From the NCBI RefSeq assembly GCF_021730395.1, contig NC_069369.1:15475210-15539209 (forward strand): a stretch of 64,000 nt of DNA, read 5' to 3'. Each line of letters opens with the position of its first letter. The stretch's first letter is position 1. The translations under genes were made by a program, and so were the position numbers. Shown here in pieces: positions 2,112-64,000 of this stretch. Below the pieces are notes generated by a model, which saw only the letters and a program-made list of their open reading frames with translations, was not told the origin of the DNA and made no database searches. Origin of the DNA: Mercenaria mercenaria (taxonomy: Eukaryota).

Positions 2112-3298
2112 GCTCGACTATTCGAAGAATTGATTGAAGAATGGGGTCAAAATATTTCCACAGATATTCAGACAAAAGAAATAAATAGATTAGACAAACA
2201 ATGTTCCTGTATTTCTTTGATTTCGATAAGTCTTGCACTAAATGGCAATGTATGAACCAATTTCAAAGTCCAAAAAGGGCCATAATTCAGTCAAAATAGT
2301 TATGTACACTTGCCTACAGATAGAAATCATAATGATAAACAAGTGTTCAAAGTTTAAAAGCCATATGTCAAATAGTTTTTACAAAACATGGACTTGTATG
2401 AAAACAGAACCAATTTCAAAGTCCAAAAAGGGCCATAATTCAGCCAAAATGGATGACAGAGTTATGTACTGTTTCCCACAGATAGAGACTATTACACTAA
2501 ACAAGTGATAAAAGTTTCAAAGCCATAAGTCAAACACTTTACAAAAAATATGAACTGGTACGGAAAACTTAACAAAGATTTCTAAGTCAAAAGGGGCCAT
2601 AATTCAGCCAAAATCCATGATGGAGTTATGTACTCTTGCCTATAACTGGATGTGGTGATGGTAAACAGGTGTTGAAAGTTTCAAAGCTTTATCTCAAAAG
2701 AATTTGTCAAAATATGAACTGGTACAAAATATTAACCCAGATTTCTAAGTCAAAAAGGGCCATAATTCAGCCAAAATTCTAGATGGAGTTATGTGCTTTT
2801 GCCTATAACTGGACTTAATGATGGTAAACAAGTGTTGAAAGTTTCAAAGCTTTATCTCAAAAGACTTTGTCAAAATACGAACTGGTACGAAAAACTTAAC
2901 CAAGATTTCTAAGTCGAAAGGGGCCATAATTCAGCCAAAATCCTTCATGGAGTTATGTACTCTTGCCTATAACTGGCCATGGTGATGGTAAACAAGTGTT
3001 GAAAGTTTCAAAGCTTTATCTTAAAAGACTTTGTCAAAATATGAACTGGTACGAAAAACTTAACCATGATTTCTAAGTCAAAAGGGGCCATAATTCAGCC
3101 AAAATCCTTGATGGAGTTATGTGCTCTTGCCTATAACTGGCCATGCTGGTGGTAAACAAGTATTGAAAGTTTCAAAGCTTTATCTCAAAAGACTTTGTCA
3201 AAATGTAGACTGGTACGAAAAACTTAACCAAGGTGTGACGCCGACGCCGACGCCGTGGTGAGTAGGATAGCTCTACTTATTCTTCGAATAGTCGAGCT
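2112..3298. mobile_element. non-autonomous TIR element, family A (TIR GCTCGACTATTCGAAGAAT...ATTCTTCGAATAGTCGAGC) with a subterminal (GACGCC)3 module and an internal tandem array of about 150 bp x 6.5
   Basis: The terminal inverted repeats are visible at 2112-2130 and 3280-3298. The tandem array spans 2240-3230. The module GGTGTGACGCCGACGCCGACGCC sits at 3234-3256. Confidence 0.7.
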
Positions 3299-13386: not shown

Positions 13387-14513
13387 GCTTGACTATTCGA
13401 AGAATAGTCTAGCTATTCTACTCACCCTGGCGTCGGCGTCGGCGTCACACCTTGGTTAAGTTTTTGCATGCAAGTACATACAGCTATCATTTAAAGGCAT
13501 ATAGCTTTGAAACTTATTTATTCTTTTTCTAGGTCAATTACTAACCTCACTGGGTCAAGTTCCATAACTCTAACATGTATTTTGAGCAAATTATGCCCCC
13601 TTTTGGACTTAGAAAATTCTGGTTAAAGTTTTACATGCAAGTTACTATCTCCAAAACTAATGTAGATATTGAATTGAAACTTCACATGTGCCTTCGGGGT
13701 TATAAAACTAGTTGATAGCACCAAGTCCCATAACTCTGACCTTCATTTTGGGCAAATTATGCCCCCTTTTGGACTTAGAAAATTCTGGTTAAAGTTTTGC
13801 ATGCAAGTACATACAGCTATTACTAAAAGGCATATAGATTTGAAACTTATTTTTTTTTTCTAGATCAATTACCTACCTCACTGGGTCAAGTCCCATAACT
13901 CTGACATGTATTTTGGGCAAATTATGCCCCCTTTTGGACTTAGAAAATCCTGGTTAAAGTTTTACATGCAAGTAACTATCTCCAAAACTACTACAGATAT
14001 TAAATTGAAACTTCACACGTGTCTTCGGGGTTATAAAACTAGTTGATAGCACCAAGTCCCATAACTCTGACATGTATTTTGGGCAAATTATGCCCCCTTT
14101 TGGACTTAGAAAATCCTGGTTAAAGTTTTGCGTGCAAGTACATACAGCTATTACCAAAAGGCATATAGCTTTGAAACTTATTTATTCTTTTTCTAGGTCA
14201 ATAACCAACCTCACTGGGTCAAGTTCCATAACTCTTAACATGTATTTTGAGCAAGTTATTCCACCTTTTGGACTTAGAAAATTCTGGTTAAAGTTTTACA
14301 TGCAAGTTACTATCCCCAAAACTAATGCAGATATTGAATTGAAACTTAACATGTTTCTTCGGGGTTATAAAACTAGTTGATAACATCAAGTCCCATAACT
14401 CTGATATGTATTTTGGTCAAATTATGTCCCCTTTCTAACTTAAAACTCTTTTGATATTTCACATTTTGGGTAATAATTTCCTGCTTCTGTGACAATATTT
14501 CGAATAGTCGAGC
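13387..14513. mobile_element. family A TIR element, second copy in opposite orientation, carrying a different internal satellite (about 190 bp x 5.5)
   Basis: GCTTGACTATTCGAAGAAT at 13387 and TTTCGAATAGTCGAGC at 14498-14513. GGCGTCGGCGTCGGCGTCACACCTTGGTTAAG at 13429-13460. Confidence 0.7.
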
Positions 14514-17632: not shown

Positions 17633-18566
17633 GCTCGACTATTCAACAGCCTTGTTGACTGAATGAATACGAAAGTCGAAAAAGGGGCATAATTTAAAAA
17701 AGCAAAATAGGGTTATGGAACCTGCATAGTGCTTATCAGCTCATGACAGTGGACAAGTGTGTGAAGTTTCAATCCATTCCCATTAGTGGGTACTGAGATA
17801 CCAGCTTACACATAAGAATTTAACCCAAAACTCCTAAGTTTAAAAAGGGGCATAATTTTGTAAAATGCAAAGTTGAGTTATTGACCTTTTGCACTGCATG
17901 TCATATCATGACAGTGAACAAGTGTGTGAAGTTTCAATCCTTTCCCATTAGTGGATACTGAGATACCAGCGTACATACAAAAACTTAACCAAACATTTCT
18001 ATGTTGAAAAAGGGGCATAATTTTGTCAAAAAGCAAAATAAAGTTATGGGACCTGCTTTGTGCAGTAAGATCATGACAGTGAACAAGAGTGTGAAGTTTC
18101 AATCCATTCCAATTAGTGAGTACTGAGATACCAGCTTACATACAAAACCTTAACCAAAAAATTCTAAGTCAAAAAAGGGGCATAATTTTGTAAAAAAGCA
18201 AAATAGAGTTATGGAACCTGTGCAGTGTAAGTCAGTTTATCACAGTGAATAAGTGTGTGAAGTTTCAATCCATTCCCACAAGTGGTTACTGAGATACCAG
18301 CTTACATACAAAACCTTAACCAAAAATTTCTTAGTCAAAAAAGGGGCATAATTTTGTGAAAAAGCAAACTAGAGTTATGGAACCTGTGCAGTATAAGTCA
18401 GTTTATCACAGTGAATAAGTGTGTGAAGTTTCAATCCATTCCCACAAGTGGTTGCTGAGATACCAGCTTACATACAAAAACTTAACCATATCGGGACGCG
18501 GACGCCGACGCGGACGCCGACACATGGGCGAGTCCAGTAGCTCTACTATTCTATGAATAGTCGAGC
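17633..18566. mobile_element. family A TIR element, third copy (internal array of about 150 bp x 5, related to the 2240-3230 array)
   Basis: GCTCGACTATTCAACAG at 17633 and CTATGAATAGTCGAGC at 18551-18566. GACGCGGACGCCGACGCGGACGCCGACAC at 18494-18523. Confidence 0.65.
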
Positions 18567-24934: not shown

Positions 24935-25750
24935 TAGCTCATCTGATTTTTTGAAAAAAAATGATGAGTTATTGTCATCACTTGAGCGGTTGTCGGCGTC
25001 GGCGTCTGCGTCGGCGTTGCCTGGTTAAGTTTTATGTTTTGGTCAGCTTTTCTCCTAAACTATCAAAGCTATTGCTTTGAAACTTGGAATACTTGTTCAC
25101 CATCATAAGCTGACCCTGTATGGCAAGAAACATAACTCCATCTTGCTTTTTGCAAGATTTATGGCCCCTTTTGTACTTAGAAAATATCAGATTTCTTGGT
25201 TAAGTTTTATGTTTAGGTCAGCTTTTCTCTTAAACTAGCAAAGCTATTGCTTTGAAACTTGGAATACTTATTCACCATCATAAGCAGACCCTGTACATCA
25301 AGAAACATAACTCCATCTTGCTTTTTGCAAGAATTATTGCCCCTTTTGGACTTAGAAAATCAGTTTTCTTGGTTAAGTTTTATGTTTAGGTCAGCTTTTA
25401 TCCTAAACTATCAAAGCTATTGCTTTAAAACTTACAACACTTGTTCACCATCATAAGCTGACCCTGTACAGCAAGCAACATAACTTCATCCTGCTTTTTG
25501 CAATAATTATTGCCCCTTTTGGACTTAGAAAAATCATTTTCTTGGTTGAATATTATGTTTGTCAACTTTTCTCATAAACTATCAAAGCTATTTCTTTAAA
25601 ACTTGCAACAGTTTTTCACCATCATAAGTGGACACTGTACATCAAGAAACATAACTCTATCCTGCTTTTTGCAAGAATGATGGCCCTTTTTAGACTTAGA
25701 AAATCATGGGTAGGACAATATTTCTATTATACAAAAAAAATCAGATGAGC
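24935..25750. mobile_element. TIR MITE, family B (TAGCTCATCTGATTTTTT...AAAAAATCAGATGAGC) with the same subterminal (GGCGTC)n-CCTGGTTAAGTTTTATG module and a 120-bp x 5 array. Sits in MVP intron 4
   Basis: Perfect TIRs at 24935-24950 and 25735-25750. A truncated copy of the same 5' end is at 22507-22690. Confidence 0.7.
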
Positions 25751-26960: not shown

Positions 26961-27169
26961 GCAAGTAACTGTATTCCTGTATTGCTGCTATTCATAATCC
27001 AGGAACACAGGGCAGGTTATGCTCACTGCCAATATCTGCGGGGAACAAGCTTGTTTTGGGACAAAATCCGTGCCATTTTAGGAACAGAATACTGGTTAAC
27101 TGATTATATTTGCTGGAAGCAACTTACAGTATTTACTGGGAACAAGTCAGTTATGATACAAAATCAAAG

Positions 27170-27770
27170 GTAACTGACCATATTTGCTGGGAACATGTCA
27201 GTTTTGGTACAAAATTCAGGTCATATTTGCTGGTAACATGTCAGTTTTGGTACAGAATCAAAGGTAACTGACCATATTTGCTGGGAACATGTCAGTTTTG
27301 GTACAAAATTCAGGTCATATTTGCTGGTAACATGTCAGTTTTGGTACAGAATTCAGGTTAACTGACCATATTTGCTGGGAACATGTCAGTTTTGGTACAG
27401 AATCAAAGGTAACTGACCATATTTGCTGGGAACATGTCAGTTTTGGTACAAAATTCAGGTTAACTGACTATATTTGCTGGGAACATGTCAGTTTTGGTAC
27501 AGAATCAAAGGTAACTGACCATATAAATTTTGCTGGGAACATGTCAGTTTTGGTACAGAATTCAGGTTAACTGACCATATTTGCTGCGAACATGTCAGTT
27601 TTGGTACAGTACCAAAGGTAACTGACCATATTTGCTGGGAACATGTCAGTTTTGGTACAGAATTCAGGTTAACTGACCATATTTGCTGCGAACATGTCAG
27701 TTTTGGTACAGAATTCAGGTTTACTGACTTATTTGTTGGGAACAATTTAGTACTGATACATTTCTTGACC
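27170..27770. repeat. tandem repeat, about 60 bp x 10, in MVP intron 5
   Basis: Unit AGGTAACTGACCATATTTGCTGGGAACATGTCAGTTTTGGTACA(A/G)AAT(T)CA. Produces the spurious 104-aa ORF 27488..27802. Confidence 0.85.
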
Positions 27771-29321: not shown

Positions 29322-30884
29322 TTTAGCTCACCTGTCACATAGTGACAAGGTGAGCTTTTGTGATCACCCTTCGTCCGTCGTTTGTGCGTCAACAATTTCG
29401 TGTCTGCACGATAGTGGTTTCGTTTATGATTTTATTTTAACCAAACTTGCACACAACTTGTATCACCATAAGATCTCGGTTCCTTTCTTGAACTGGCTAG
29501 ATCCCATTATGGGTTCCAGAGTTATGGTCCCTGAAAGGGCCAAAATTAGCTATTTTGATCTTGTCTGCACAATAGCAGCTTTATTTAGACTTGATTGGTA
29601 CCAAATTGGCACACAACTTGTATCACCATAAGATCTTGGTTCCTTTATTGAACTGGCCAGATTCCATTATAGGTTCCAGAGTTATGGCCCCTGAAAAGGC
29701 CAAAATTAGCTATTTTGACCTTGTCTGCACAATAGCAGCTTCATTTATGATTTTATTTTAACCAAACTTGCACACAACTTGTATCACCATAAGATCTTGG
29801 TTCCTTTCTTGAACTGGCGAGATTCCAGTATTGGTTCCAGAGTTATGACCCCTGAAAGGGTCAGAATTAGCTATTTTGACCTTGTCTGCACAATAGCAGA
29901 TTCATTTATGATTTGAATTTAATCAAACTTGCACAAAACTTGTGTCACCATAAGATCTTGGTTCTTTTGTTGAACTGGCCAGATCCCATAATGGGTTCCA
30001 GAGTTATGGCCCATGAAAGGGCCAAAATTAGCTATTTTGACCTTGTCTGCACAATAGCAGCTTCATTTATGACTTGATTTTAACCAAACTTGCACACAAC
30101 TTGTATCACCACAAGATCTTGCTTCCTTTGTTGAACTGACCAGATTCCACCATGGGTTCCAGAGTTATGGCCCCTGAAAGGTCCAGAATTGGCTATTTTG
30201 GCTTTTGCAGCCATATAGAGACTTCATTTATGGTTTTATTTGATACAAACTTCCAAAATATCTTCAACAACAATAAATCTTGGATTCCATGACAAATCAG
30301 ATCCAATCATAGGTTCCAGAGTTATTTTATATCTGATTACCTCCCCTGATTGTAATCAAAATAGATTTATATCAGTAAGTACTTATAGGACTTATTTGAA
30401 ATTTCATTATTGTCATTAGTTGGACTGAGCCAATCAGGGTAGATAACTATGGACTGATTTTATGTCAAATTACCACCCTTTATTTCAAATTAAAATGGGT
30501 ATATCTCCGTAACTAAAGAAGATACTGATCTGAAATTTCATTTATGTCAACAGATTTATTTGGCAGATCCTTCTTTTGTTCACTTACAATAAAAATTTTT
30601 TTTAATTACTTCCCTTTTACATTACTATAAATAGCTTATTTTTAGTAACTTTTTTATTATTGGCCATAGGGAAAAACCGAGACCACTTTTCTGTGGTACA
30701 ATATGGATGGTACCTCCAATTTTTAGGTGTATTTTGACATATCTGTATTTTTTTTTCTTTTTGGTTAAATTTCTTCCCTTTGTTGTTACTGTCCTTTGGA
30801 TTTAGATATTTTTTCTGAGGACCTTCTTGTCCTCAAGTGCAATGATAACAGGTGAGCGATATAGGGCCATCATGGCCCTCTTGT
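29322..30884 (+). mobile_element. hairpin-headed tandem-repeat element, family C (5' TTTTAGCTCACCTGTCACATAGTGACAAGGTGAGC then CGTCCGTCG; 3' GGTGAGCGATATAGGGCCATCATGGCCCTCTTGT). Internal array about 160 bp x 5. Sits in MVP intron 7
   Basis: A 32-bp perfect palindrome at the 5' terminus. The conserved 3' terminus is at 30850-30884. Confidence 0.7.
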
Positions 30885-33860: not shown

Positions 33861-34303
33861 ACCAGTAGCATTCAGCTTGGAATCTTAATTACAAGTATAT
33901 TTACATAGTTGTGCACATTATGGTCCATTTCTTAGAGTGCAGTGAAATACCTCTTACTTGAGCATCAATGGCTTGAGCACCCAGGCCCACCAAGCAGCTA
34001 ATATTGCACCAGCTATTTTCTTTGTAACTGTCTTTTATGCTTGGATTGCCTGAGACCCCTGGATAACTGGAGCATTCTGCTCATCATCTTGCAACCTCAG
34101 GCAGATAGTGTTTACCTTACATTAGTTTATAAATTAGCAATTGCTTGATAGTTGATTTAACAAGGCATGTGTAGAATCACAATTATAGCTTCAAAAATAT
34201 GGAAAAAATATGCAGTACGTACTGCTGTTATTTTAAATAATATTTTCTTTTGCATAATGTTTCTGGTATTAAAATTAAAACAGAATACATTTACTGTTTC
34301 TAG

Positions 34304-34364
34304 GAAGCAGATACCAATGAGCAAGAATGAAGGAATTTATGTACAGGATACACAGACTGGCAGG
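34304..34364 (+). CDS. MVP: MVP exon 11 (R)KQIPMSKNEGIYVQDTQTGR
   Basis: Acceptor ctgtttctag and donor GTAACA. Matches the highly conserved ENEGIYVQDVKTGKV. Confidence 0.9.
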
Positions 34365-34401
34365 GTAACATGTATTTTCTTATTACCATTTTAACTGACT
34401 T

Positions 34402-36580
34402 TTTAGCTCACCTGTCACAAAGTGACAAGGTGAGCTTTTGTGATCGTGCGGTGTCCGTCGTCCGTGCGTGCGCCCGTCCGTAAACTTTTGCTTGTGACCA
34501 CTCTAGAGGTCACATTTTTCATGGGATCTTTATGAAAGTTGGTCAGAATGTTCATCTTGATGATATCTAGGTCAAGTTTGAAACTGGGTCACGTGCCTTC
34601 AAAAACTAGGTCAGTAGGTCTAAAAATAGAAAAACCTTGTGACCTCTCTAGAGGCCATATATTTCACAAGATCTTCATGAAAATTGGTCAGAATGTTCAC
34701 CTTGATGATATCTAGGTCAAGTTCGAAACTTGGTCACATGCCATCAAAAACTAGGTCAGTAGGTCTAAAAAACCTTGTGACCTCTCTGGAGGCCATATAT
34801 TTCAAAGATCTTCATGAAAATTGGTCAGAACGTTCATCTTGATGATATCTAGGTCAAGTTCGAAACTGGATCACGTGCCTTCAAAAACTAGGTCAGTAGG
34901 TCAAATAATAGAAAACCCTTGTGACCTCTCTAGAGGCCACATTTTTCATGGGATCTGTATGAAAATTGGTCTGAATGTTCATCTTAATGATATCTAGGTC
35001 AGTTTTGAAAGTGGATCACGTGCCTTCAAAAACTAGGTCAGTAGGTCAAATAATAGAAAAACCTTGTGACCTCTCTAAAGGCCACATTTTTCATGGGATC
35101 TGTATGAAAGTTGGTCTGAATGTTCATCTTGTTGATATCTAGGTCAAGTTCGAAACTGAGTCACGTGTGGTCAAAAACTAGGTCAGTAGGTCTAAAAATA
35201 GAAAAACCTTGTGACCTCTCTAGAGGCCATATATTTCATGAGATCTTCATGAAGATTGGTCAGACTGTTCATCTTGATGATATCTAGGTCAAGTTTGAAA
35301 GTGGGTCACGTGCCTTCAAAAACTAGGTCAGTAGATCAAATAATAGAAAAACCTTGTGACCTCTCTAGAGGCCATATTTTTCATAGGAATTGTATGAAAG
35401 TTGGTCAGAATGTTCATCTTGATGATATCTAGGTCAGTTTCGAAAGTGGGTCACGTGCCTTCAGAAACTAGGTCAGTAGGTCAAATAATAGAAAAACCTT
35501 GTGACCTCTCTAGAGGCCATATTTTTCATGGGATCTGTATGAAAGTTGGTCTGAATGTTCATCTTAATGATATCTAGGTCAATTTTGAAAGTGGGTCACG
35601 TGCCATCAAAAACTAGGTCATTAGGTCAAATAATAGAAAAACCTTGAGACCTCTCTAAAGGCCATATTTTTCATGGGATCTGTATGAAAGTTGGTCTGAA
35701 TGTTCATCTTGATGATATCTAGGTCAAGTTCGAAACAGGGTGATGTGCGGTCAAAAACTAGGTCAGTAGATCTAAAAATAGAAAAACCTTGTGACCTCTC
35801 TAGAGGCCATACTTGTGAATGGATCTCCATAAAAATTGGTCAGAATGTTCACCTTGATGATATCTAGGTCAAGTTTGAAACTGGGTCACGTGCCTTAAAA
35901 AACTAGGTCAGTAGGTCAAATGATAAAAAAACCTTGTGACCTCTCTAGAGGCCATACCTTTCATGGGATCTGTATGAAAGTTGGTCTGAATGTTCATCTT
36001 GATGATATCTAGGTCAAGTTTGAAACTGGGTCAACTGCGGTCAAAAACTAGGTCAGTAGATCTAAAATTATTAAAATCTTTTGACCTCTCTAGAGGCCAT
36101 ATTTTTTAATGGATCTTCATGAAAATTGTTCTGAATGTTCACCTTGATGATATCTAGGTCAAGTTCGAAACTGGGTCACGTGTGGTCAAAAACTAGGCCA
36201 GTAGGTATAAAAATAGAAAAACCTTGTGACCTCTTTAGAGGCCATATTTTTCATGAGATCTTCATGAAAATTAGTGAGAATGTTCACCTTGATGATATCT
36301 AGGTCAAGTTTAAAACAGGGTCACGTACCCTCGAAAACTAGGTCAATAGGTCAAATAATAGAAAAACCTTGTGACCTCTCTAGAGACCATATTTTTCAAT
36401 GGATCTTCTTGAAAATTGGTCAGAATTTTTATCTTGATAATATCTAGATCAAGTTCAAAACTGGGTCACATGAGCTCAAAAACTAGGTCACTAAGTCAAT
36501 AATAGAAAAAACGAAGTCATACTCAAAACTGGGTCATGTGGGAAGAGGTGAGCGATTCAGGACCATCATGGTCCTCTTGT
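34402..36580 (+). mobile_element. family C hairpin-headed element carrying a 165-bp x 12 satellite. Sits in MVP intron 11
   Basis: 5' TTTTAGCTCACCTGTCACAAAGTGACAAGGTGAGCTTTTGTGATCGTGCGGTGTCCGTCGTCCG. 3' GAGGTGAGCGATTCAGGACCATCATGGTCCTCTTGT at 36545-36580. Confidence 0.75.
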
Positions 36581-37094
36581 TTGTTAAAACGACTTTTTTG
36601 TGTTTTGCCCTCAGAGTGGAAAATAGTGCTTGAATTGTCCATCTGTTGGCCAGTTTGTCTGTCAATCTTTCTTTGTACTCAACTCCTCCTACAGTTTTTA
36701 TCAAATTCAAATGAAAATTGGTATACATCATCAGCATTAAATGGATATATGCATATTACGGGGAATTTAATGTCCGAGTTTTATTCTTGAGAAATGGCCT
36801 GTTTATATACTTTGAAATATTGCAACTACAATTGTACTTCTCCTACAGTTTCTAAACTTGGTATACATCGTCAACATAACAAAAATTAGGCATTGTGTAT
36901 ACCATCAGGATTTTTGTGTCTATTTTTTTGAGTTAAGCCCCTTATTGTTCCTTTGATACATCCATTATATGCATAACTGCTCTAGTTTCCATCAACAATT
37001 CAAATGGAACTTGGTATGAAGATGGCCTATGAAAGTTCCAGTGGCAAGACAGAAGGCATTCAGCAACACTGTTGAGTATATATATTCAGAACAT

Positions 37095-37849
37095 GTATTT
37101 AACTGCAGGTTAGAGCTGTGATGTTGAGTAAATTAATTTTTTAACTGCAGGTTAGAGCTGTGATGTTGAGTATATATATTTTGTATAGTCTATTTTAACT
37201 GCAGGTTAGAGCTGTGATGTTGAGTATATATATTTTGTATAGTCTATTTTAACTGCAGGTTAGAGCTATGATGTTGAGTATATATATTTTGTGTAGTCTA
37301 TTTTGACTGCAGTTTAGAGCTGTGATGTTGAGTATATATTGTTTGTATAGTCTATTTGACTTCAGGTTAGAGCTGTGATGTTGAGTATATTTATTTTGTA
37401 TAGTCTATTTTAACTGCAGGTTAGAGCTGTGATGTTGAGTATATTTATTTTGTATAATATATTTTAACTGCAGGTTAGAGCTATGATGTTGAGTATATAT
37501 ATTTTGTGTAGTCTATTTTGACTGCAGTTTAGAGCTGTGATGTTGAGTATATATTGTTTGTATAGTCTATTTGACTTCAGGTTAGAGCTGTGATGTTGAG
37601 TATATATATTTTGTATAGTCTATTTTAACTGCAGGTTAGAGCTGTGATGTTGAGTATATATATTTTGTGTAGTCTATTTTGACTGCAGGTCAGAGCTGTG
37701 ATGTTGAGTATATATTGTTTGTATAGTCTATTTGACTTCAGGTTAGAGCTGTGATGTTGAGTATATTTATTTTGTATAATATATTTTAACTGCAGGTTAG
37801 AGCTGTGATGTTGAGTATATATATTTTGTGTAGTCTATTTTGACTGCAG
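37095..37849 (+). repeat. 55-bp satellite (about 14 units, 165-bp higher-order period) whose unit contains a copy of the 3' splice site and first 17 nt of MVP exon 12. The array abuts exon 12
   Basis: The unit TAACTGCAGGTTAGAGCTGTGATGTTGAGTATATATATTTTGTATAGTCTATTT compares with the exon 12 junction GACTGCAGGTCAGAGCTGTGATGGGACC. Confidence 0.85.
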
Positions 37850-37944
37850 GTCAGAGCTGTGATGGGACCAAAGTCATACATGTTGCAGTCTCATGAACTT
37901 CTCTGGAAGAAAGAACTGGACGCTATTGTAGAAGAAATGCTTAA
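37850..37944 (+). CDS. MVP: MVP exon 12 (VRAVMGPKSYMLQSHELLWKKELDAIVEEMLK)
   Basis: Acceptor gactgcag lies at the end of a 55-bp satellite array. Donor GTATGT. Matches [23 protein letters not shown]..VEELL. Confidence 0.78.
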
Positions 37945-38758
37945 GTATGTTTAAATTATTATGGCTATTAGGGCCCTGCCTTTTCGTGAAAGCCCTACAG
38001 TAATCACTCTGTCTGTCTATTTGTGTATCCATCCATTGGTTTCCAGACATTACCTTGACCAGGCCATAACTTGAAACTGTTCTAGATATTTTTTTTTTTT
38101 TTTCAGACAATGACAAAGGACATTGAGAGGATGTGCACTCTGTGAATCATTACGCTACATTGCATAATTTTTTAATTATCTCCATTTGCTAAAAATGCTG
38201 AAGGGGAATTTATTCAAACTACATACAAAGATGGAGAACATTAAGGGAAAATTCAGTGTACAAGAACCATAACTCTACCTTGCTTACTTTTAGCTCCGCT
38301 AGTAGATCTATCCTACTCACCATTGCATTGATATCTGCTTCTGCTTCCTTTTCTTGAGAGATTCTCTCTTTTTTTGACATGTGAAAGTTGAAATCTACAT
38401 ATTCACGTCCCAAGAAGTAGCCTTTTTAACCAAAACCATAAAATTTCAAGCTCACAGAATTGAATGATTTCACTGAATTGTCAAAACTGAACTGAGAAAA
38501 TGTGGTAAAGATATCTCTGATGTCATGTAATAAAAAAATTATTGAATGGCTTTCCTATGAATTTTAAAAATGCAAGTTTATGGAAGGATTCAGTGAAAGG
38601 TGATCCTGCCATGATCTTGAGAAAATAGTTTTAAGGCTTGACCAAATAATTGACTCAGTAAGTGTTTAAATGTTTAGTTATAGTTGTGTATTTATAATAG
38701 GTTTGAGCAGACTAGATTTTGCAAGTATTGTCATGAAATGGTTTGTTCTGTATTGCAG

Positions 38759-38837
38759 ACATGGTGGAGGTTCAGGGTCAGGAGATATCAGGAAGATTGC
38801 TTATTTTGAACAGTCAATAGACCCACAGTTTCTCAAG
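38759..38837 (+). CDS. MVP: MVP exon 13 (K)HGGGSGSGDIRKIAYFEQSIDPQFLK
   Basis: Acceptor ctgtattgcag and donor GTAAGC. The frame is fixed by the flanking exons. This is a lineage-variable linker region of MVP. Confidence 0.75.
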
Positions 38838-39114
38838 GTAAGCAAAAAATTTTATGTATTGAAGAATGATAAACATAGGGCTCCCCACTAGTAAACACAC
38901 CCAGCAAAACACTCATCTGTCTTAACATTCTTTTGTTTGTAAACATGAGCTCAAACAATAAAGTAACATTCATAAAAACTAATTTATGACCAGAGTTTAA
39001 ATTTTGGCATATTTTTGCATTTTAAATAAAACATGCGTTTAGACTAAATGAAAAAATGTACCATGCCAAAAAATAGCACTTTCACCAATTTTTGTATAAA
39101 AAATGAAATACTAA

Positions 39115-41000
39115 TTATTTTTATGCTCCCCAAAGGGAGAGTATATAGTTGCTGCTTTGTCTGTCCTGTCTGTCCATCTGTCTTTCAGTCTGTCACACTT
39201 TTGTTCAGAGTATAACTTGAAAAGTATTAATGGCATTTGATTGAAACTTCACTTAATCATAGAGGTCATTGAGACAAAGTGCAGTGTCAAAGAATCATAA
39301 CTCTACCTTACCTAATTTTTGAATTATCTCCCTTTATTATACAAAATAAGGCTTGTCCGGAGCATTACTTGAAAAATATTAATGGCATTTCATTGAAACT
39401 TCACAAAATGATAGAGGCCATTGAAAATGCAGTGTCAAAGAACCATAACTCTTCTTTACTTATTTTTTGAATTCTCTCCCTTCATTATACAAAATAAGGC
39501 TTGTCCGGAGTACAACTTGAAAAGTATTAAAGGCATTTGATGGAAACTTTGCATAATCATAGAGGCTATTGAGACAAAGTGCAGTGTCAACGAATTATAA
39601 CAAGCTTTATAATGAAATTTTGTTTTTTTTAGGGTCGGGATAAGACGAGGGTTGTACAGTATAGATGCCCAGGCAACACGGCCGTCCAGGTGAACAACTA
39701 TTTGGATAAAACAGCACGGGTTGTATTTGGTCCTGACCTGGTTATCCTCGGGCCACATGAGAACTTCAGTGTTCTTAGTCTCAGTGGTAAGTTATTTATT
39801 TACACAGTCCAACATAGATGATCATATGCTGACATTCTTTCTTCTTTATTCAAGAATAAATTACAAATGCATTATGTGATTAAATATTTAAACCAATGCA
39901 TAATTTTTTAATTGATTATTTGAAAAAGCTGAGGAATTTATCAAAAATAAAAGCATGAGAACATTAAATTCAGTGTACAAGACATAACGTATTTTACTTA
40001 GGCATAATGTTTTCAATTGCATTATTCTGTGTCTGCCCCGAGTCATTCTCTCTTTTTTTACATTATTGAAATCTACTATACGGCGGTGCCTTTTTCCCTA
40101 AAGTTTCAGAAATAAAATTTCAAATTGTCAACTGAATGAGACTGTGTAAAGATTTTATAAATAAAAAATTATTGAATGGCTCTCTCTAGATTTAATAGCT
40201 ATTTTGAAGATAGAAATCTGTGTTTGAAAATTTTAGCTGATTTCTCAAATAAATGTTTGTTATAGTTGTTATTTAAGATTTGACGATAGTTGGAGTCAAT
40301 TTCATAAATTTTTCTGAGCGAGTGGAGTCTGTCAGTATCGAAATTGTTTATTTAACATGTATAGACACAGTTCCAAGGAAGAAAATTATGTATGAGATCT
40401 AACTAGGCTCCATAGTAAAAACCACAAAACTATTCTTACTTCTTTGTTGAAACATGAGCCAACATAGACATCATACTAATTTATGCCGGTTTAATTCATA
40501 TTTGCATTTTTAAAAAACATGTTTAATAAAACCAAATTACCTGCCAAATATAGTTCACTAATTCTGTAAAAAATGAAATACTATATTTTTATGCTCCCCA
40601 AAGGGAGAGTATAAGTGCTCTTGTCTGCCATCGTGTCATTTACCATTGTTACACTTTTGTTCAGAGTATAACTTGAAAATATTAAGGCATTGTTGAAACT
40701 TATTAATCTTTAGGTCAATTAACCAACGTGCATGGTCAAGTATCATAACTCTACCATAATTTTTGCAAATTATGCTCCCTTTTATTAAAAATTAGTGTTT
40801 TCCGGAAGATTACTATCTAAATACTAAGGGCATATTCAATTGAAACTTCACATATCTGATAAAACATTGATCAGTCAAAGACCATAACTCTTGACTTATT
40901 TGATTAATGCCCCCTTTATAGGACTGTCGAAATCATGGTTTAAAGTTTATAGCTGCATAATCATAGAGCTATTAACAAAGGCATTAAAGATTTAAAACTT
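39115..41000. repeat. two related TE copies (starting TTTTTATGCTCCCCAAAGGGAGAGTATA at 39115 and 40585) with internal 130-bp repeats, in MVP introns 13 and 14
   Basis: Shared 5' ends and a shared GTTCAGAGTATAACTTGAAAA(G)TATTAA(T)GGCAT body. Confidence 0.5.
39633..39786 (+). CDS. MVP: MVP exon 14 ([51 protein letters not shown])
   Basis: Acceptor ttttttttag and donor GTAAGT. Matches [49 protein letters not shown]. Confidence 0.92.
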
Positions 41001-42804: not shown

Positions 42805-44207
42805 TTTTAGCTCACCTGTCACATAGTGACAAGGTGAGCTTTTTGATCGTCAGTCCGTCCGTCGTCCATCCACAATTTCTTATGAACACGATAGAGACCA
42901 CATTTTGTAATCAATTTTAATCAAACTTGCACACAACTTGTATTGGCTTAATATCTTAGTTCCTTTCGAAAACTGGCCAGACCCCATCATGGGTTCCAGA
43001 GTAATGGCCCCTTAAAGGGCCAAAATTTGCTATTTTGGCTTTTGCAGCCATATAGAGACTTCAATTTTGGCCTGTGAACACGATAGAGACCACATTTTGC
43101 AGTTGATTTTAATAAAACTTACACACAACTTGTACTGGCATAATATCTCGGTTCCTTTTAAAAACTGGCCAGATCCCGTCATGGGTTCAAGAGTTGTGGC
43201 CCCTTAAAACGCCAAAATTTGCTATTTTGGCTTTTGCAGCCATATAGAGACTTCATTTATGGTTTGATTTGATACAAACTTGCAAAATATCTTTAACAAC
43301 AATAGATCTTGGATTCCATGATGAATCCGTCAGATCCAATCATAGGTGCCGGAGTTACGGCCCCTGATTGACCCCTGAAAGAGCAAAAAAAAAAAATTTT
43401 TACCTTGTAAACACGATAGAAGTGACATTTTACATTTGAGTTTAACCACACTTACACACAACTTAAGTCACAATAAGATCTTGGTTCCTTTTGAAAACTG
43501 GCTTGATTCCTTCATGGGTTCCTGAGTTACTGCCCCTGATAAATTTTCTATATTGGCCCTTTCAGTCATATAGAGGTTTTATTTATGCTTTGATTTGATA
43601 CAAACTTGCACAGAATGTTTATCTTGATGATCTAAACATTCTATGCAAGTTTGTATCAAATCAAAGCATAAATAAAACCTCTATATGGCTGAAAGGGCCA
43701 ATATAGAAAATTCTTGATGATCTCTAAACCATGTTTCAAACTGGGTCATGTGGGGTCAAAAACTAGGTCACCAGGTCAAATCAAAGGAAAAGCTTTAACA
43801 CCCTAGAGGCCACATATATGACCCTATCCTCATGAAACTTGGTCAGAATGTTTATCTTGATGATTCCTATGCCAGGTTCAAAACTGGGTCATATGGGGTT
43901 TAAAACTAGGTCACCTAGTAAAATGAAAGGAAAAAGCCTGTTAACTCTCTTGAGGCCACATTTGTGACCCTATCTTCATGAAACTTGGTCAGAATGTTCA
44001 TCTTGATCATTCCTAGGCCAAGTTTGAAAATGGGCCATGTGGAGTCAAAAACTAGGTCACCACTCAAATCAAAGGAAAAGCTTGTTAACACTTTAGAGAC
44101 CATATTTATGACCCTAACTTCATGAAACTTGGTCAGAATGTTTATCTTGATGATTCCAGTGCCAAGTTTAACAGATGAGCAATATAGGGTCATCATGGCC
44201 CTCTTGT
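42805..44207 (+). mobile_element. family C hairpin-headed element in MVP intron 16 (contains a 140-bp x 3 array and an internal 150-bp palindrome at 43560-43710)
   Basis: 5' TTTTTAGCTCACCTGTCACATAGTGACAAGGTGAGC. 3' CAGATGAGCAATATAGGGTCATCATGGCCCTCTTGT. Confidence 0.7.
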
Positions 44208-60060: not shown

Positions 60061-61105
60061 CAAGAGGGTCATGATGACCCTGAATCGCTCAACTGAGTAA
60101 TAGGAGTCACATGTTTCAAATGGCATACTGATGCTAAAGTATTAGAAAGTAGGTCAGTAGGTCAAATTCATGGTCACTGAAAGTCAGTTTTAAGATCGTA
60201 TGCAAAACTACATGTCATCCAAATTTCAAGGCTGTATCTTAAAAAACAAGAAAGTAGGCCAGTAGGTCAACGTCACAGTAAGGTGACAAGTAATCACTTG
60301 GGTACATCAGGTAAACATGATTAAACAGTCCAGGAAATATGATCTGATAATTTTTGAAGTATTTTTTCCTACATAACTCGTATAACAAGTGACCCCCCAG
60401 GGCGGGGCCTTTCTTTACCCCAGGGGCATAATTTGAACAATTCTGTTAGAGGTCCACTAGGCAATGCTACATACCAAATATCAAAAGCCTAGGCCTTTTA
60501 GTTTCAGACAAGAAGATTTTTAAAGTTTTATCCTATATAAGTCTATGTAAAACTTGGGACCCCCGGGGTGGGGCCTCTTTTCACCCCAGGGGCACAATTT
60601 GAACAATCTTCATAGAGGACCAAAAGGCAAAGCTACATACAAAATATCAAAGGCCTAGGTCTTGTAGTTTCAGACAAGAAGATTTTTAAATTTTTTTCCT
60701 ATATAAGTCTATGTAAAACTTGGGACCCCCAAGGTGGGGCCTCTTTTCATCCCAGGGGCACAATTTGAACAATCTTCATAGAGGACCATTAGATGATGTC
60801 ACTTGCCAAATAGCAAGGCTCTTTGCCTTGCAGTTTTGGACAAGAAGATTTTTAAAGTTTTTCCTTTCGGTTGCAGTTCTGCATGGAATGAAATTCTTTT
60901 AACAATTTTGAAAGGGGACCACTCAAGGATCATTCCTGTGAAGTTTGGTGTAATTCTACCCTGTGGTTTTCAAGAAGAAGATTTTTTTAGAAAATGTTGA
61001 CGGACACACGACGGACGACTGACACCGCACGATGCACGACAGACAACAGACATTGACCGGTCACAAAAGCTCACCATGAGCCTTTGGCTCAGGTGAGGTA
61101 AAAAC
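60061..61105 (-). mobile_element. family C hairpin-headed element in reverse orientation (internal 170 bp x 3 array, 60370-60880). Sits in an intron of the downstream gene
   Basis: ACAAGAGGGTCATGATGACCCTGAATCGCTCAAC at 60061. GTCACAAAAGCTCACCATGAGCCTTTGGCTCAGGTGAGG at 61060-61098, preceded by the CGACGGACG-type GC motif. Confidence 0.65.
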
Positions 61106-62929: not shown

Positions 62930-63670
62930 TATACCAATTTCATTTTTAGCTCCACTTTTCGAAGAAAAAGTAGAGCTATTGCACTCGCCCCGGTGTCGAT
63001 GTCACTGTTGGTTAAAGTTTTTGATAAAGACAAATATCTCTGTTACTATCAAAGATATTGACTTGAAACTTAAAATAGCTATTTACTATCAAAGTCTACA
63101 CCAGGAGAAACAATCCCCATAACTTTGATTTGAATTTTGATGGAATTATGCCCCTTTTTAACTTAGAATTTTTGGTTGAAGTTTTTGATTAAGTCAGTAT
63201 CTCTGTTACTATCAAAGATATTGACTTGAAACCTAAAATAGTTATTTACTGTCAAAGTGTACACCAGGAGAAACAATCCCCATAACTCGGATTTGAATTT
63301 TGATGGAGTTATGCCCCTTTTTAACACAGAATTTTCGGTTAAAGTTTTTGATAAAGTCAAATATCTCTGTTACTATCAAAGCTATTGACTTGAAACTTGA
63401 AATAGTTATTTATTATCAAAGTCTACATCAGGAGAAACAACACACATAACTCTCATTTGAATTTTGATGGAGTTATGCCCCTTTTTGACTTAGATTGTTT
63501 TGTTTAAGTTTCTGATAAAGTCAAATATCTCTGTTACTATCAAAGCTATTGACTCGAAACTTAAAATTGTTATTAACTATCAAAGTGTACACTTGGTGAA
63601 ACAATCCCCACAACTTTGGTTTGAAGGTTGTCAAAGTTATGCCCCTTTTTAACTTAGAATGTTTGTTTAA
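62930..63670. mobile_element. tandem-repeat-carrying element (5' TTTAGCTCCACTTTTCGAAGAAAAAGTAGAGCTATTGCACTCGCCCCGGTGTCGATGTCACTGTTGGTTAAAGTTTTTGAT) with a 170-bp x 4 array
   Basis: Same terminal-module logic as families A and B: TAGCTC..., then a GC-rich GTCG/GGCGTC motif, then TGGTTAAAGTTTT. Confidence 0.5.
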
Positions 63671-64000
63671 GGTTTTATAAAGTTTTTACTGGCAAAGCTC
63701 TAATTTTGAGTCTAGCACTGAGAAAAGTCAAGCGTGCTGTCTTAAGGACAGCTCTTGTAAACAGATGGAAACTGTAGAAGTTAAGTACAAAAGGTACAGA
63801 GGTGGTTGTAATGCTGGCAAGTCCAAAAATGGGCATAACTCCAGCAAAAATGAATGGACACAAAAATGCCTATGATATGTGCATGTCCACTTCTTAGAGA
63901 TAAAGTTTAACAAATATTATTTTAATTAGATGGAAACTGAACGAGGTGCCAAGTACAGATGTACTTGTAATACTGTTAAAGGCGGTCAAACAAATTGAGG

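What the first reader, a model, noticed from the sequence alone, without database searches (positions are those of the whole stretch)
37095..37944. Satellite array built from a copy of the MVP exon-12 3' splice site, sitting directly on that splice site
About 14 tandem units of 55 bp (165-bp higher-order period) each contain ...ACTGCAG|GTTAGAGCTGTGATG.... The real junction is ACTGCAG|GTCAGAGCTGTGATGGGACC. So the array is a ladder of about 14 near-perfect decoy acceptors. Each decoy carries the first 17 exonic nt and lies 55 nt apart, immediately upstream of the genuine acceptor of an essential, in-frame MVP exon. The decoy units read ...VRAVMLSI... and then hit stops, so use of any of them would truncate MVP. 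Either the cell suppresses them, or they generate alternative or NMD isoforms. Amplification of an exon boundary into a satellite is also an unusual origin for a satellite.
Basis: seen in the sequence. Interest (0 to 1): 0.75.

Follow-up and report, generated by a model that had tools for sequence, protein, structure and literature searches.

The report
Splice-acceptor minisatellite in MVP intron
A 54-bp stretch straddling an intron/exon border of a mollusc major-vault-protein gene has been copied head-to-tail 14 times inside the intron, giving 14 look-alike splice acceptors ahead of the real one; the repeat is real and striking, but this kind of repeat is already described (amphioxus "mirages", human F7 intron 7).

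Summary
CAGGTYAGAGCTRTGATG occurs 15 times between 37106 and 37864 (+ strand), against 0.03 expected by chance. That makes 14 intronic decoys plus the genuine acceptor.

The unit is 54 bp, not 55. It consists of 39 nt of intron tail and 15 nt of exon head, not 17. Higher-order periods are 161, 215 and 376 bp, not 165.

The exon at 37850-37944 is real MVP coding sequence. VRAVMG aligns with VRAVIG of solved mammalian MVP structures, so the exon head is ancestral and the array copied it. Every decoy, read in the exon frame, stops within 11-21 codons. One decoy is 54/54 identical to the genuine boundary unit. The unit occurs nowhere else in the window.

The decoy ladder exists, but the origin is not unusual. 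Boundary-spanning minisatellites are known at donors in human F7, IFI6, CBS, LMNB2 and PDGF. In amphioxus they occur at both boundaries and are called "mirages", and RT-PCR there shows normal splicing. MVP is also not known to be essential.

The most likely reading is a near-neutral local tandem duplication. The decoys would be out-competed because only the last copy is followed by an exon body and a donor. I could obtain no RNA data and no orthologous locus. It is a new member of a known kind, of modest interest.

The parts
34304..34364 (+).
   Evidence: tblastn hit to MVP residues 376-401; spliced frame is open
34365..37849 (+). Intron of 3485 nt. It holds an unrelated 145-bp x14 array (34491-36510) and, at its 3' end, the 54-bp array
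37072..37165 (+). Two divergent leading units (52 and 42 nt), each ending in ...TTTAACTGCAG|GTTAGAGCTGTGATG. The left edge of the array follows ...CACTG, sharing a 2-nt TG microhomology with the right edge ...GATG
   Evidence: no further degenerate copies upstream
37166..37810 (+). Twelve full decoy units (54 or 53 nt), each made of 39 nt of intron tail and 15 nt of exon head. Identical sets are units 4=8, 5=9=12 and 2=10; units 7 and 13 differ at 1 position. Unit 11 (37650-37703) is identical to the genuine boundary unit
37811..37864 (+). Genuine boundary unit: the last 39 nt of the intron (…TTTTGACTGCAG) plus the first 15 nt of the exon (GTCAGAGCTGTGATG). The real acceptor AG ends at 37849
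37850..37944 (+). Genuine MVP exon (95 nt, starts in phase 0): VRAVMGPKSYMLQSHELLWKKELDAIVEEMLK. The body after +15 carries two GAAGAA motifs that are absent from the array
37945..37950 (+). Donor of that exon, TAA|GTATGT. No other donor-like GT lies inside the array except the acceptor junctions themselves (CAG|GTYAGA)
38759..38837 (+). Next MVP exon (HGGGSGSGDIRKIAYFEQSIDPQFLK). It confirms the frame and the donor of the exon above

Best explanation
This is an array confined, as far as the window shows, to this one intron: a boundary-spanning intronic minisatellite, the acceptor-side version of what amphioxus workers call a 'mirage'.

Origin. A 52-54-bp segment made of the last 37-39 nt of the intron and the first 15 nt of the downstream MVP exon was duplicated in tandem. 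The breakpoints share a TG microhomology (...CACTG|TTGAG and ...GATG|GGACC). The copies then expanded by slippage or unequal exchange, in blocks of 3, 4 and 7 units, to 14 copies. All extra copies lie upstream of the coding continuation, so they simply lengthen the intron by about 0.78 kb. The mature mRNA is unchanged as long as the last AG is used.

How the real acceptor is chosen (inferred). The decoys share every signal from -39 to +15 with the real site, so discrimination can only come from downstream sequence. Only the last copy is followed by an exon body with purine-rich GAAGAA enhancer-like motifs and by a donor 95 nt away. That is the exon-definition model. Decoys are followed by AT-rich intron sequence. 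Occasional decoy use would give a premature stop and probably nonsense-mediated decay. Alternatively it could be corrected by re-splicing, because every junction is AG|GT.

Net effect: near-neutral or mildly costly, and probably variable in copy number between individuals.

Shown here: the array, its unit structure, the direction of copying (exon to array), and the stop codons. Inferred: the duplication mechanism, the silence of the decoys, and the polymorphism.
For: - Array and copy counts are far above chance.
- The unit contains 15 nt that encode V-R-A-V-M. These residues are conserved in solved mammalian MVP, where the sequence is VRAVIG. The coding part therefore predates the array.
- The unit is absent elsewhere in the window on either strand; the best ungapped match is 29-32 of 54.
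- The leftmost units are divergent and the inner units form exact multi-unit duplicates. This is the usual minisatellite turnover pattern, also described for amphioxus mirages.
- Variable columns number 9 of 39 in the intron part and 3 of 15 in the exon-derived part. The decoy exon heads are therefore under no extra constraint.
- The open MVP frame across exons 11-14 requires the last AG.
- All MVP exons found from about 23.8 to 52.1 kb are stop-free, so the gene looks functional despite the array.
- GAAGAA occurs twice in the exon body and not at all in the 778-nt array. No usable donor lies inside the array.
- No significant RNA structure could mask the decoys (z = -1.17).
- Precedents: the BflGb6 acceptor-side mirage is spliced normally by RT-PCR. 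[quoted passage not shown]
Against: - No transcript data, no second haplotype and no orthologous intron could be obtained. Silence of the decoys and polymorphism are therefore untested.
- Decoy unit 11 is identical to the real site over 54 nt, and decoys 54-215 nt upstream would still give exons of 149-310 nt, which is within the range of exon definition. Some decoy use is therefore plausible.
- In human IFI6 and CBS the two pseudo-donors nearest the exon are in fact used.
- Early duplicated-splice-site experiments gave conflicting results.
- Copy number in an assembly of a tandem array can be wrong.
Confidence: 0.78

Rival explanations
1. The decoys are used at an appreciable rate and the array acts as a rheostat. 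Splicing to decoy AGs, or non-productive engagement of decoy 3' splice sites leading to intron retention, would divert part of the pre-mRNA to PTC-containing, NMD-degraded forms. Copy number would then tune MVP output.
For: - 14 decoys carry signals equal to the real site from -39 to +15, and one is 54/54 identical.
- All give premature stops.
- Pseudo-sites near the exon are used in human IFI6 and CBS.
- The F7 pseudo-sites are intrinsically functional.
Against: - There are no RNA data.
- The decoy splice signals show no conservation beyond what recent common descent explains.
- The amphioxus acceptor-side and other mirages show normal splicing.
- Nothing indicates selection for the array.
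Confidence: 0.12
2. The array is an assembly artefact. It does not exist at this locus, or its copy number is grossly wrong, because tandem repeats are easily mis-assembled.
For: - Tandem arrays are error-prone in assemblies.
- The amphioxus authors found the draft-genome version of the BflGb6 mirage to be aberrantly assembled.
- About 19% of this window is tandem repeat.
Against: - The units are not identical copies. They fall into four variant types arranged in ordered 3-, 4- and 7-unit blocks, with divergent edge units. That pattern suggests real turnover rather than stutter.
- The array joins unique flanks cleanly on both sides and keeps the exon frame intact.
- A wrong copy number would not remove the phenomenon.
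Confidence: 0.07
3. A pre-existing dispersed satellite or transposon-borne repeat happened to land next to the exon, and the resemblance to the exon head is coincidental or was captured from the repeat.
For: The window is full of tandem arrays of 145-173 bp that recur at several places and look like dispersed families.
Against: - The 54-bp unit has no other copy in 64 kb on either strand.
- The shared 15 nt encode residues conserved from mammals to this animal, so the exon could not have taken them from a young repeat.
- The match is 22-24 nt across the exact junction at the array's own edge.
Confidence: 0.03

Closest known systems
[quoted passage not shown] Sources: PMC3087553, PMC3902484, and Canestro et al. 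2002 NAR 30:2871 (cited there, not held in the library)
   Same: - The tandem units contain both intron and exon sequence and reiterate the splice signal.
- BflGb6 is on the acceptor side: the 3' end of the intron plus the 5' part of exon 2.
- Edge units are divergent while inner units are homogenised.
- Units contain AG/GT.
- Adh3 unit lengths (10-72 bp) bracket ours.
   Different: - The animal is a bivalve-like mollusc, not a cephalochordate, and the gene (MVP) is different.
- There are 14 decoys, against 3-6 for BflGb6, and the unit is shorter (54 bp against 150-160 bp).
- The exon-proximal (genuine) unit is not excluded from homogenisation here: it is identical to an inner unit.
- Polymorphism and normal splicing were shown in amphioxus and are untested here.
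Human F7 intron 7 37-bp VNTR and similar donor-side minisatellites (IFI6/6-16, CBS IVS13, LMNB2, PDGF intron 4). Source: PMC1557585
   Same: - The end monomer spans the exon/intron boundary, so the authentic splice site is accompanied by a ladder of identical pseudo-sites inside the intron.
- Copy numbers are similar (5-25).
- It serves as a natural model for choosing among identical sites.
   Different: - Those are donor (5') sites downstream of the real one. Here they are acceptor (3') sites upstream of the real one.
- The F7 rule ('the most upstream site wins') would be lethal to the transcript if it applied to acceptors. Selection here must favour the most downstream copy.
Rogers model of intron gain by tandem duplication of an AG|GT-containing segment, tested by Hellsten et al. 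2011 (PMC3265369; see also PMC2891723)
   Same: - A tandem duplication whose unit contains AG|GT.
- The redundant copy can be removed as GT...AG, leaving the protein unchanged.
- Every junction here is CAG|GTYAGA.
   Different: No new intron is created. The duplication included an existing acceptor and merely extends an existing intron. The +3 pyrimidine makes the GT side a poor donor.
Recursive splice sites (ratchet points), known from my own recall of the Drosophila and vertebrate literature
   Same: A 3' splice site abutting a GT, so that splicing to it regenerates a 5' splice-site-like sequence (AGG|GTTAGA).
   Different: The intron is short (3.5 kb). The GT side is GTYAGA rather than GTAAGT. 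There is no lariat or junction evidence, and the sites are recent duplicates rather than conserved elements.

Membership tests
Boundary-spanning minisatellite ('mirage') | Head-to-tail tandem array of a 10-200-bp unit | tested here: met
   TRF reports period 54, 13.5 copies, 90% matches. There are 15 junction motifs at 54- or 53-nt spacing.
Boundary-spanning minisatellite ('mirage') | One terminal unit spans a genuine exon/intron boundary, so the unit is part intron and part exon | tested here: met
   Unit 14 (37811-37864) is 39 nt of intron plus 15 nt of an MVP exon. The exon is verified against solved MVP structures and C. gigas MVP, and the spliced frame is open.
Boundary-spanning minisatellite ('mirage') | The splice signal is reiterated in the intronic copies | tested here: met
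   14 of 14 decoys keep CAG and 12 of 14 keep CAG|GT. One is identical to the real site over 54 nt.
Boundary-spanning minisatellite ('mirage') | Locus-specific origin from the gene's own sequence, not a dispersed repeat | tested here: inconclusive
   There is no other copy in the 64-kb window, and the exon-derived part encodes conserved residues. The rest of the genome could not be searched. The motif was absent from metagenome contigs, which is uninformative.
Boundary-spanning minisatellite ('mirage') | Copy-number instability or polymorphism between haplotypes | not testable with these tools
   Only one haplotype is available. Multi-unit exact duplicates show recent turnover but not polymorphism.
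Boundary-spanning minisatellite ('mirage') | Normal mRNA still made from the authentic site | not testable with these tools
   No transcript data are available, and the protein database held no near-identical MVP from this species. The intact exons across the gene are only indirect support.
Classical satellite DNA | Long arrays (many kb to Mb) present at many loci or in heterochromatin | tested here: not met
   The array is 0.79 kb and sits at a single site in the window. 'Minisatellite' is the correct term.
Recursive splice site | Juxtaposed strong 3'ss and 5'ss motif (Y-tract NCAG|GTAAGT) | tested here: inconclusive
   The junction is CAG|GTYAGA. The heuristic donor value is 0.86 at the site and 0.78 once reconstituted, but a pyrimidine at +3 is rare in donors (matrix from memory).
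Recursive splice site | Located in a very long intron, with junction or lariat evidence | tested here: not met
   The intron is 3485 nt. No RNA evidence is available.
NAGNAG tandem acceptors | Two acceptor AGs 3 nt apart giving in-frame one-codon isoforms | tested here: not met
   The acceptors are 53-54 nt apart and all decoys lead to stop codons.

The most novel reading that the evidence does not exclude
The ladder of 14 decoy acceptors is functionally engaged. It could act as a copy-number-dependent brake on MVP expression, through decoy splicing followed by NMD or through decoy-induced intron retention. Alternatively it could be a self-correcting system: a decoy is spliced first, and the regenerated AGG|GTYAGA is then re-spliced to the next AG until the real exon is reached. 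Either would make it a natural acceptor-side counterpart of the F7 model for how one site is chosen among identical 3' splice sites.
Probability: 0.1. Interest if true: 0.6.

Novelty: new member of a known kind. Interest (0 to 1): 0.3.

Why it matters
It is a clean natural example of 15 acceptors with identical local signals, of which only the last can give a functional mRNA. Local splice-site strength therefore cannot explain the choice. As the F7 intron 7 minisatellite did for donors, it could serve as a minigene or RNA-seq model to weigh three influences on 3' splice-site choice: exon definition, 5'-to-3' scanning, and first-come-first-served co-transcriptional commitment.

It also suggests that boundary-spanning minisatellites ('mirages') are not peculiar to amphioxus. 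Such arrays can be tolerated in a tandem-repeat-rich mollusc genome. The genuine exon head takes part in array homogenisation, since it is identical to an inner unit. That offers a route by which variants in decoys could be transferred into coding sequence.

For annotation it is a practical warning. Gene predictors and spliced aligners can place this junction on any of the 15 copies.

Tried and rejected
Attempts to find the same or an orthologous locus, all without result:
1. Exact search of metagenome contigs for the junction motif.
2. Search for a degenerate coding pattern of the exon head.
3. Look-up of the C. gigas fragment P0007.
4. Look-up of an 80-aa ORF next to the array. Neither this nor P0007 is on record.
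5. The protein search returned no near-identical MVP, so no transcript-derived protein from this species is available. P0010's contig (L001, 713 bp) covers only a later exon.

Explanations considered and rejected:
1. Masking RNA structure. Folding of 37650-37950 gave z = -1.17, which is not significant.
2. A non-coding RNA in the intron. There were no Rfam hits in 34000-39000.
3. A gene on the opposite strand. Only trivial ORFs of 31 and 80 aa are present.
4. A second 'mirage' at the 51-bp x12 array (27130-27744). A weak tblastn hit at 27063-27122 lay beside it. The array ends 88 nt before the next exon and overlaps no boundary, so it was rejected.
5. A dispersed-repeat origin of the 54-bp unit. 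No other copy is present in the window.

Its hits validate themselves and agree.

Full report
**1. What is there**

Reading 36800-38300 shows a head-to-tail repeat that runs straight into a coding exon. Tandem Repeats Finder reports 37139-37864, period 54, 13.5 copies, 90% matches, score 1200. It also reports higher-order periods of 161 and 215 bp at 93%.

The junction motif CAGGTYAGAGCTGTGATG, searched with up to 3 mismatches (none has more than 1), occurs 15 times. All copies are on the + strand between 37106 and 37864, against 0.03 expected from dinucleotide shuffles. The 39-nt intronic part of the unit occurs 10 times at up to 3 mismatches, against 0 expected.

Cutting the array at the novel joint (…GATG|TTGAG…) gives the following:
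- two divergent leading units of 52 and 42 nt (37072-37165);
- twelve full units of 54 or 53 nt (37166-37810);
- the genuine boundary unit (37811-37864).

Each unit is 39 nt of intron tail (TTGAG…ACTGCAG) plus 15 nt of exon head (GTYAGAGCTGTGATG).

The unit is 54 bp, not 55. It carries 15 exonic nt, not 17. The higher-order periods are 161, 215 and 376 bp, not 165. The array starts at 37072.

**2. The exon is real and ancestral**

A tblastn probe with human MVP locates stop-free MVP exons on the + strand from about 23.8 to 52.1 kb.

Concatenated exon translations match solved MVP structures at E = 2e-63. …TQTGR|VRAVMGPKSYML aligns without a gap to …[15 protein letters not shown].

Splicing 34304-34364, 37850-37944, 38759-38837 and 39633-39786 gives one open frame. 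Exons 12-14 are 78% identical, with no gaps, to a Crassostrea gigas MVP fragment. This points to a bivalve-like mollusc other than C. gigas.

V-R-A-V-(M/I)-G is conserved between this animal and mammals, so the 15 exonic nt predate the array. The array copied the exon boundary, not the reverse. 'Exon 12' is a plausible number from the HSP count, but I did not verify it.

**3. Anatomy and history**

Unit relationships:
- Units 4=8, 5=9=12 and 2=10 are identical. Units 7 and 13 differ at one position.
- Decoy unit 11 (37650-37703) is 54/54 identical to the genuine boundary unit, including the synonymous GTC where most decoys have GTT.
- Self-identity peaks at shifts of 161 (0.83), 215 (0.87) and 376 (0.88).

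The array therefore grew by block duplications of 3, 4 and 7 units. The genuine boundary took part in the most recent one. The leftmost units are the most divergent, as is usual for minisatellite edges.

The array edges (…CACTG|TTGAG… and …GTGATG|GGACC…) share only TG. That fits a microhomology-mediated first duplication, which is an inference.

Variable columns number 9 of 39 in the intron part and 3 of 15 in the exon-derived part. The decoy 'exon heads' are thus not under extra constraint.

The unit has no other copy in the window on either strand; the best ungapped match is 29-32 of 54. No degenerate copies lie further upstream.

**4. Consequences for splicing**

All 14 decoys keep CAG. Twelve keep CAG|GT, two read CAG|TT, and three have TTCAG. 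Read in the exon frame, each decoy gives VRAVMLS… and stops after 11-21 codons. Any decoy use therefore yields a premature stop.

From -39 to +15 the decoys and the real site are the same, so local signals cannot discriminate. What differs lies downstream:
- The real site is followed by 80 nt of exon body. It is 57% purine with two GAAGAA motifs, and is followed by the donor TAA|GTATGT.
- The decoys are followed by AT-rich intron sequence: 45% T, 30% GC and no GAR-GAR motif in 778 nt.
- The only donor-like GTs inside the array are the acceptor junctions themselves.

An RNA fold of 37650-37950 is no more stable than shuffles (z = -1.17). I see no masking structure.

My best mechanistic reading is exon definition: only the last copy can be paired with enhancers and a donor. 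This is inferred, not shown.

Every junction is CAG|GTYAGA. A transcript spliced to a decoy therefore regenerates AGG|GTTAGA and could in principle be re-spliced to a later AG, restoring the normal mRNA. This is the Rogers/Hellsten logic. The +3 pyrimidine makes it a weak donor, so I treat this as a minor possibility.

**5. Comparison with what is known**

The literature search shows the kind is already described.

Borensztajn et al. 2006 (PMC1557585) list minisatellites whose first monomer spans an exon/intron boundary and reiterate the donor:
- F7 intron 7: 37 bp, 5-9 copies, only the authentic site used.
[quoted passage not shown] - LMNB2 and PDGF.

[quoted passage not shown] BflGb6 duplicates the 3' end of an intron plus the 5' part of exon 2. 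It differs in copy number between haplotypes (3 against 6) and is spliced normally by RT-PCR (PMC3087553). Adh, TnC and PGBD5 show the same (PMC3902484).

The present array meets the testable defining features: it is a tandem array, its terminal unit spans a real boundary, and the splice signal is reiterated. Polymorphism and normal splicing could not be tested.

It differs from these precedents in host (mollusc), gene (MVP), number of acceptor decoys (14), and in the genuine unit being homogenised with an inner unit.

'Satellite' is a misnomer for a 0.8-kb array seen at one place in the window. 'Essential' is not supported, because MVP knockout mice are viable and healthy (PMC7916137).

**6. 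Rivals**

| Explanation | Confidence | Main point |
|---|---|---|
| Boundary-spanning minisatellite ('mirage'), decoys largely silent | 0.78 | Fits all sequence evidence and the precedents |
| Appreciable decoy use acting as an NMD or intron-retention rheostat | 0.12 | Possible, but no RNA data and no sign of selection |
| Assembly artefact | 0.07 | Copy number may be wrong, but ordered variant units and clean unique flanks argue that the array exists |
| Dispersed repeat landing by chance | 0.03 | Contradicted |

**7. What could not be done**

No transcript data were available. No second haplotype or orthologous intron could be retrieved. No MaxEnt-type splice scoring could be run.

**8. Verdict**

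The 'decoy ladder' description is correct. The claims of unusual origin and of essentiality are not supported. It is a new member of a known kind, with modest interest (0.3). Its main value is as a ready-made natural model for 3' splice-site choice and as a warning for annotation.

Noticed in passing
window 34491-36510 (also 43712-44171): The same intron holds a 145-bp x14 tandem array (86% matches). A 146-bp array in a later MVP intron has a visibly related, circularly permuted consensus (…TCTTGATGAT…AAACTGGGTCA…TCAAAAACTAGG…). This looks like a dispersed, probably transposon-borne repeat family unrelated to the 54-bp array.
   Followed up: partly
window 445-63683 (about 20 arrays, e.g. 2298-3232, 13453-14434, 17673-18488, 25022-25703, 29401-30252, 60394-60865, 63008-63683): About 12 kb of the 64-kb window (roughly 19%) lies in tandem arrays with TRF score of at least 80. 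Most have periods of 161-173 bp, often with a doubled higher-order period of 327-331 bp. Only the 54-bp array overlaps an exon boundary.
   Followed up: partly
window 27130-27744: A 51-bp x12 minisatellite (209-bp higher order) sits in another MVP intron, and each unit contains a donor-like AAAG|GTAACT. A weak tblastn hit at 27063-27122 lies beside it. The array ends 88 nt before the next exon (27832) and does not span a boundary, so it is not a second 'mirage'.
   Followed up: yes
P0007 (C. gigas XP_019917910.1) versus window 37862-37944: The only named oyster MVP fragment in the protein database starts exactly at the Met of VRAVM|G, 12 nt into the orthologous exon, and ends in intron read-through. 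It is a truncated gene model. Whether the oyster locus also has a problem or a repeat at this boundary could not be checked, because the locus is not on record.
   Followed up: partly
window 37847-37855 and each decoy junction: The exon starts with a Val codon GTY, so the acceptor junction CAG|GTYAGA is also donor-like. Its heuristic consensus value is 0.86, higher than the exon's own donor TAA|GTATGT at 0.72. The real exon 12 donor and the exon 11 donor (AGG|GTAACA) are both weak by that measure.
   Followed up: partly
L001 (ENA ERZ927850 contig, 713 bp): Two short ENA metagenome-assembly proteins (P0009 and P0010; P0010's 713-bp contig was fetched as L001) match the later MVP exon (39633-39786) at 87% identity, and both gene calls read through into flanking non-MVP sequence. 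They appear to be host DNA from a related mollusc in a metagenome sample.
   Followed up: no
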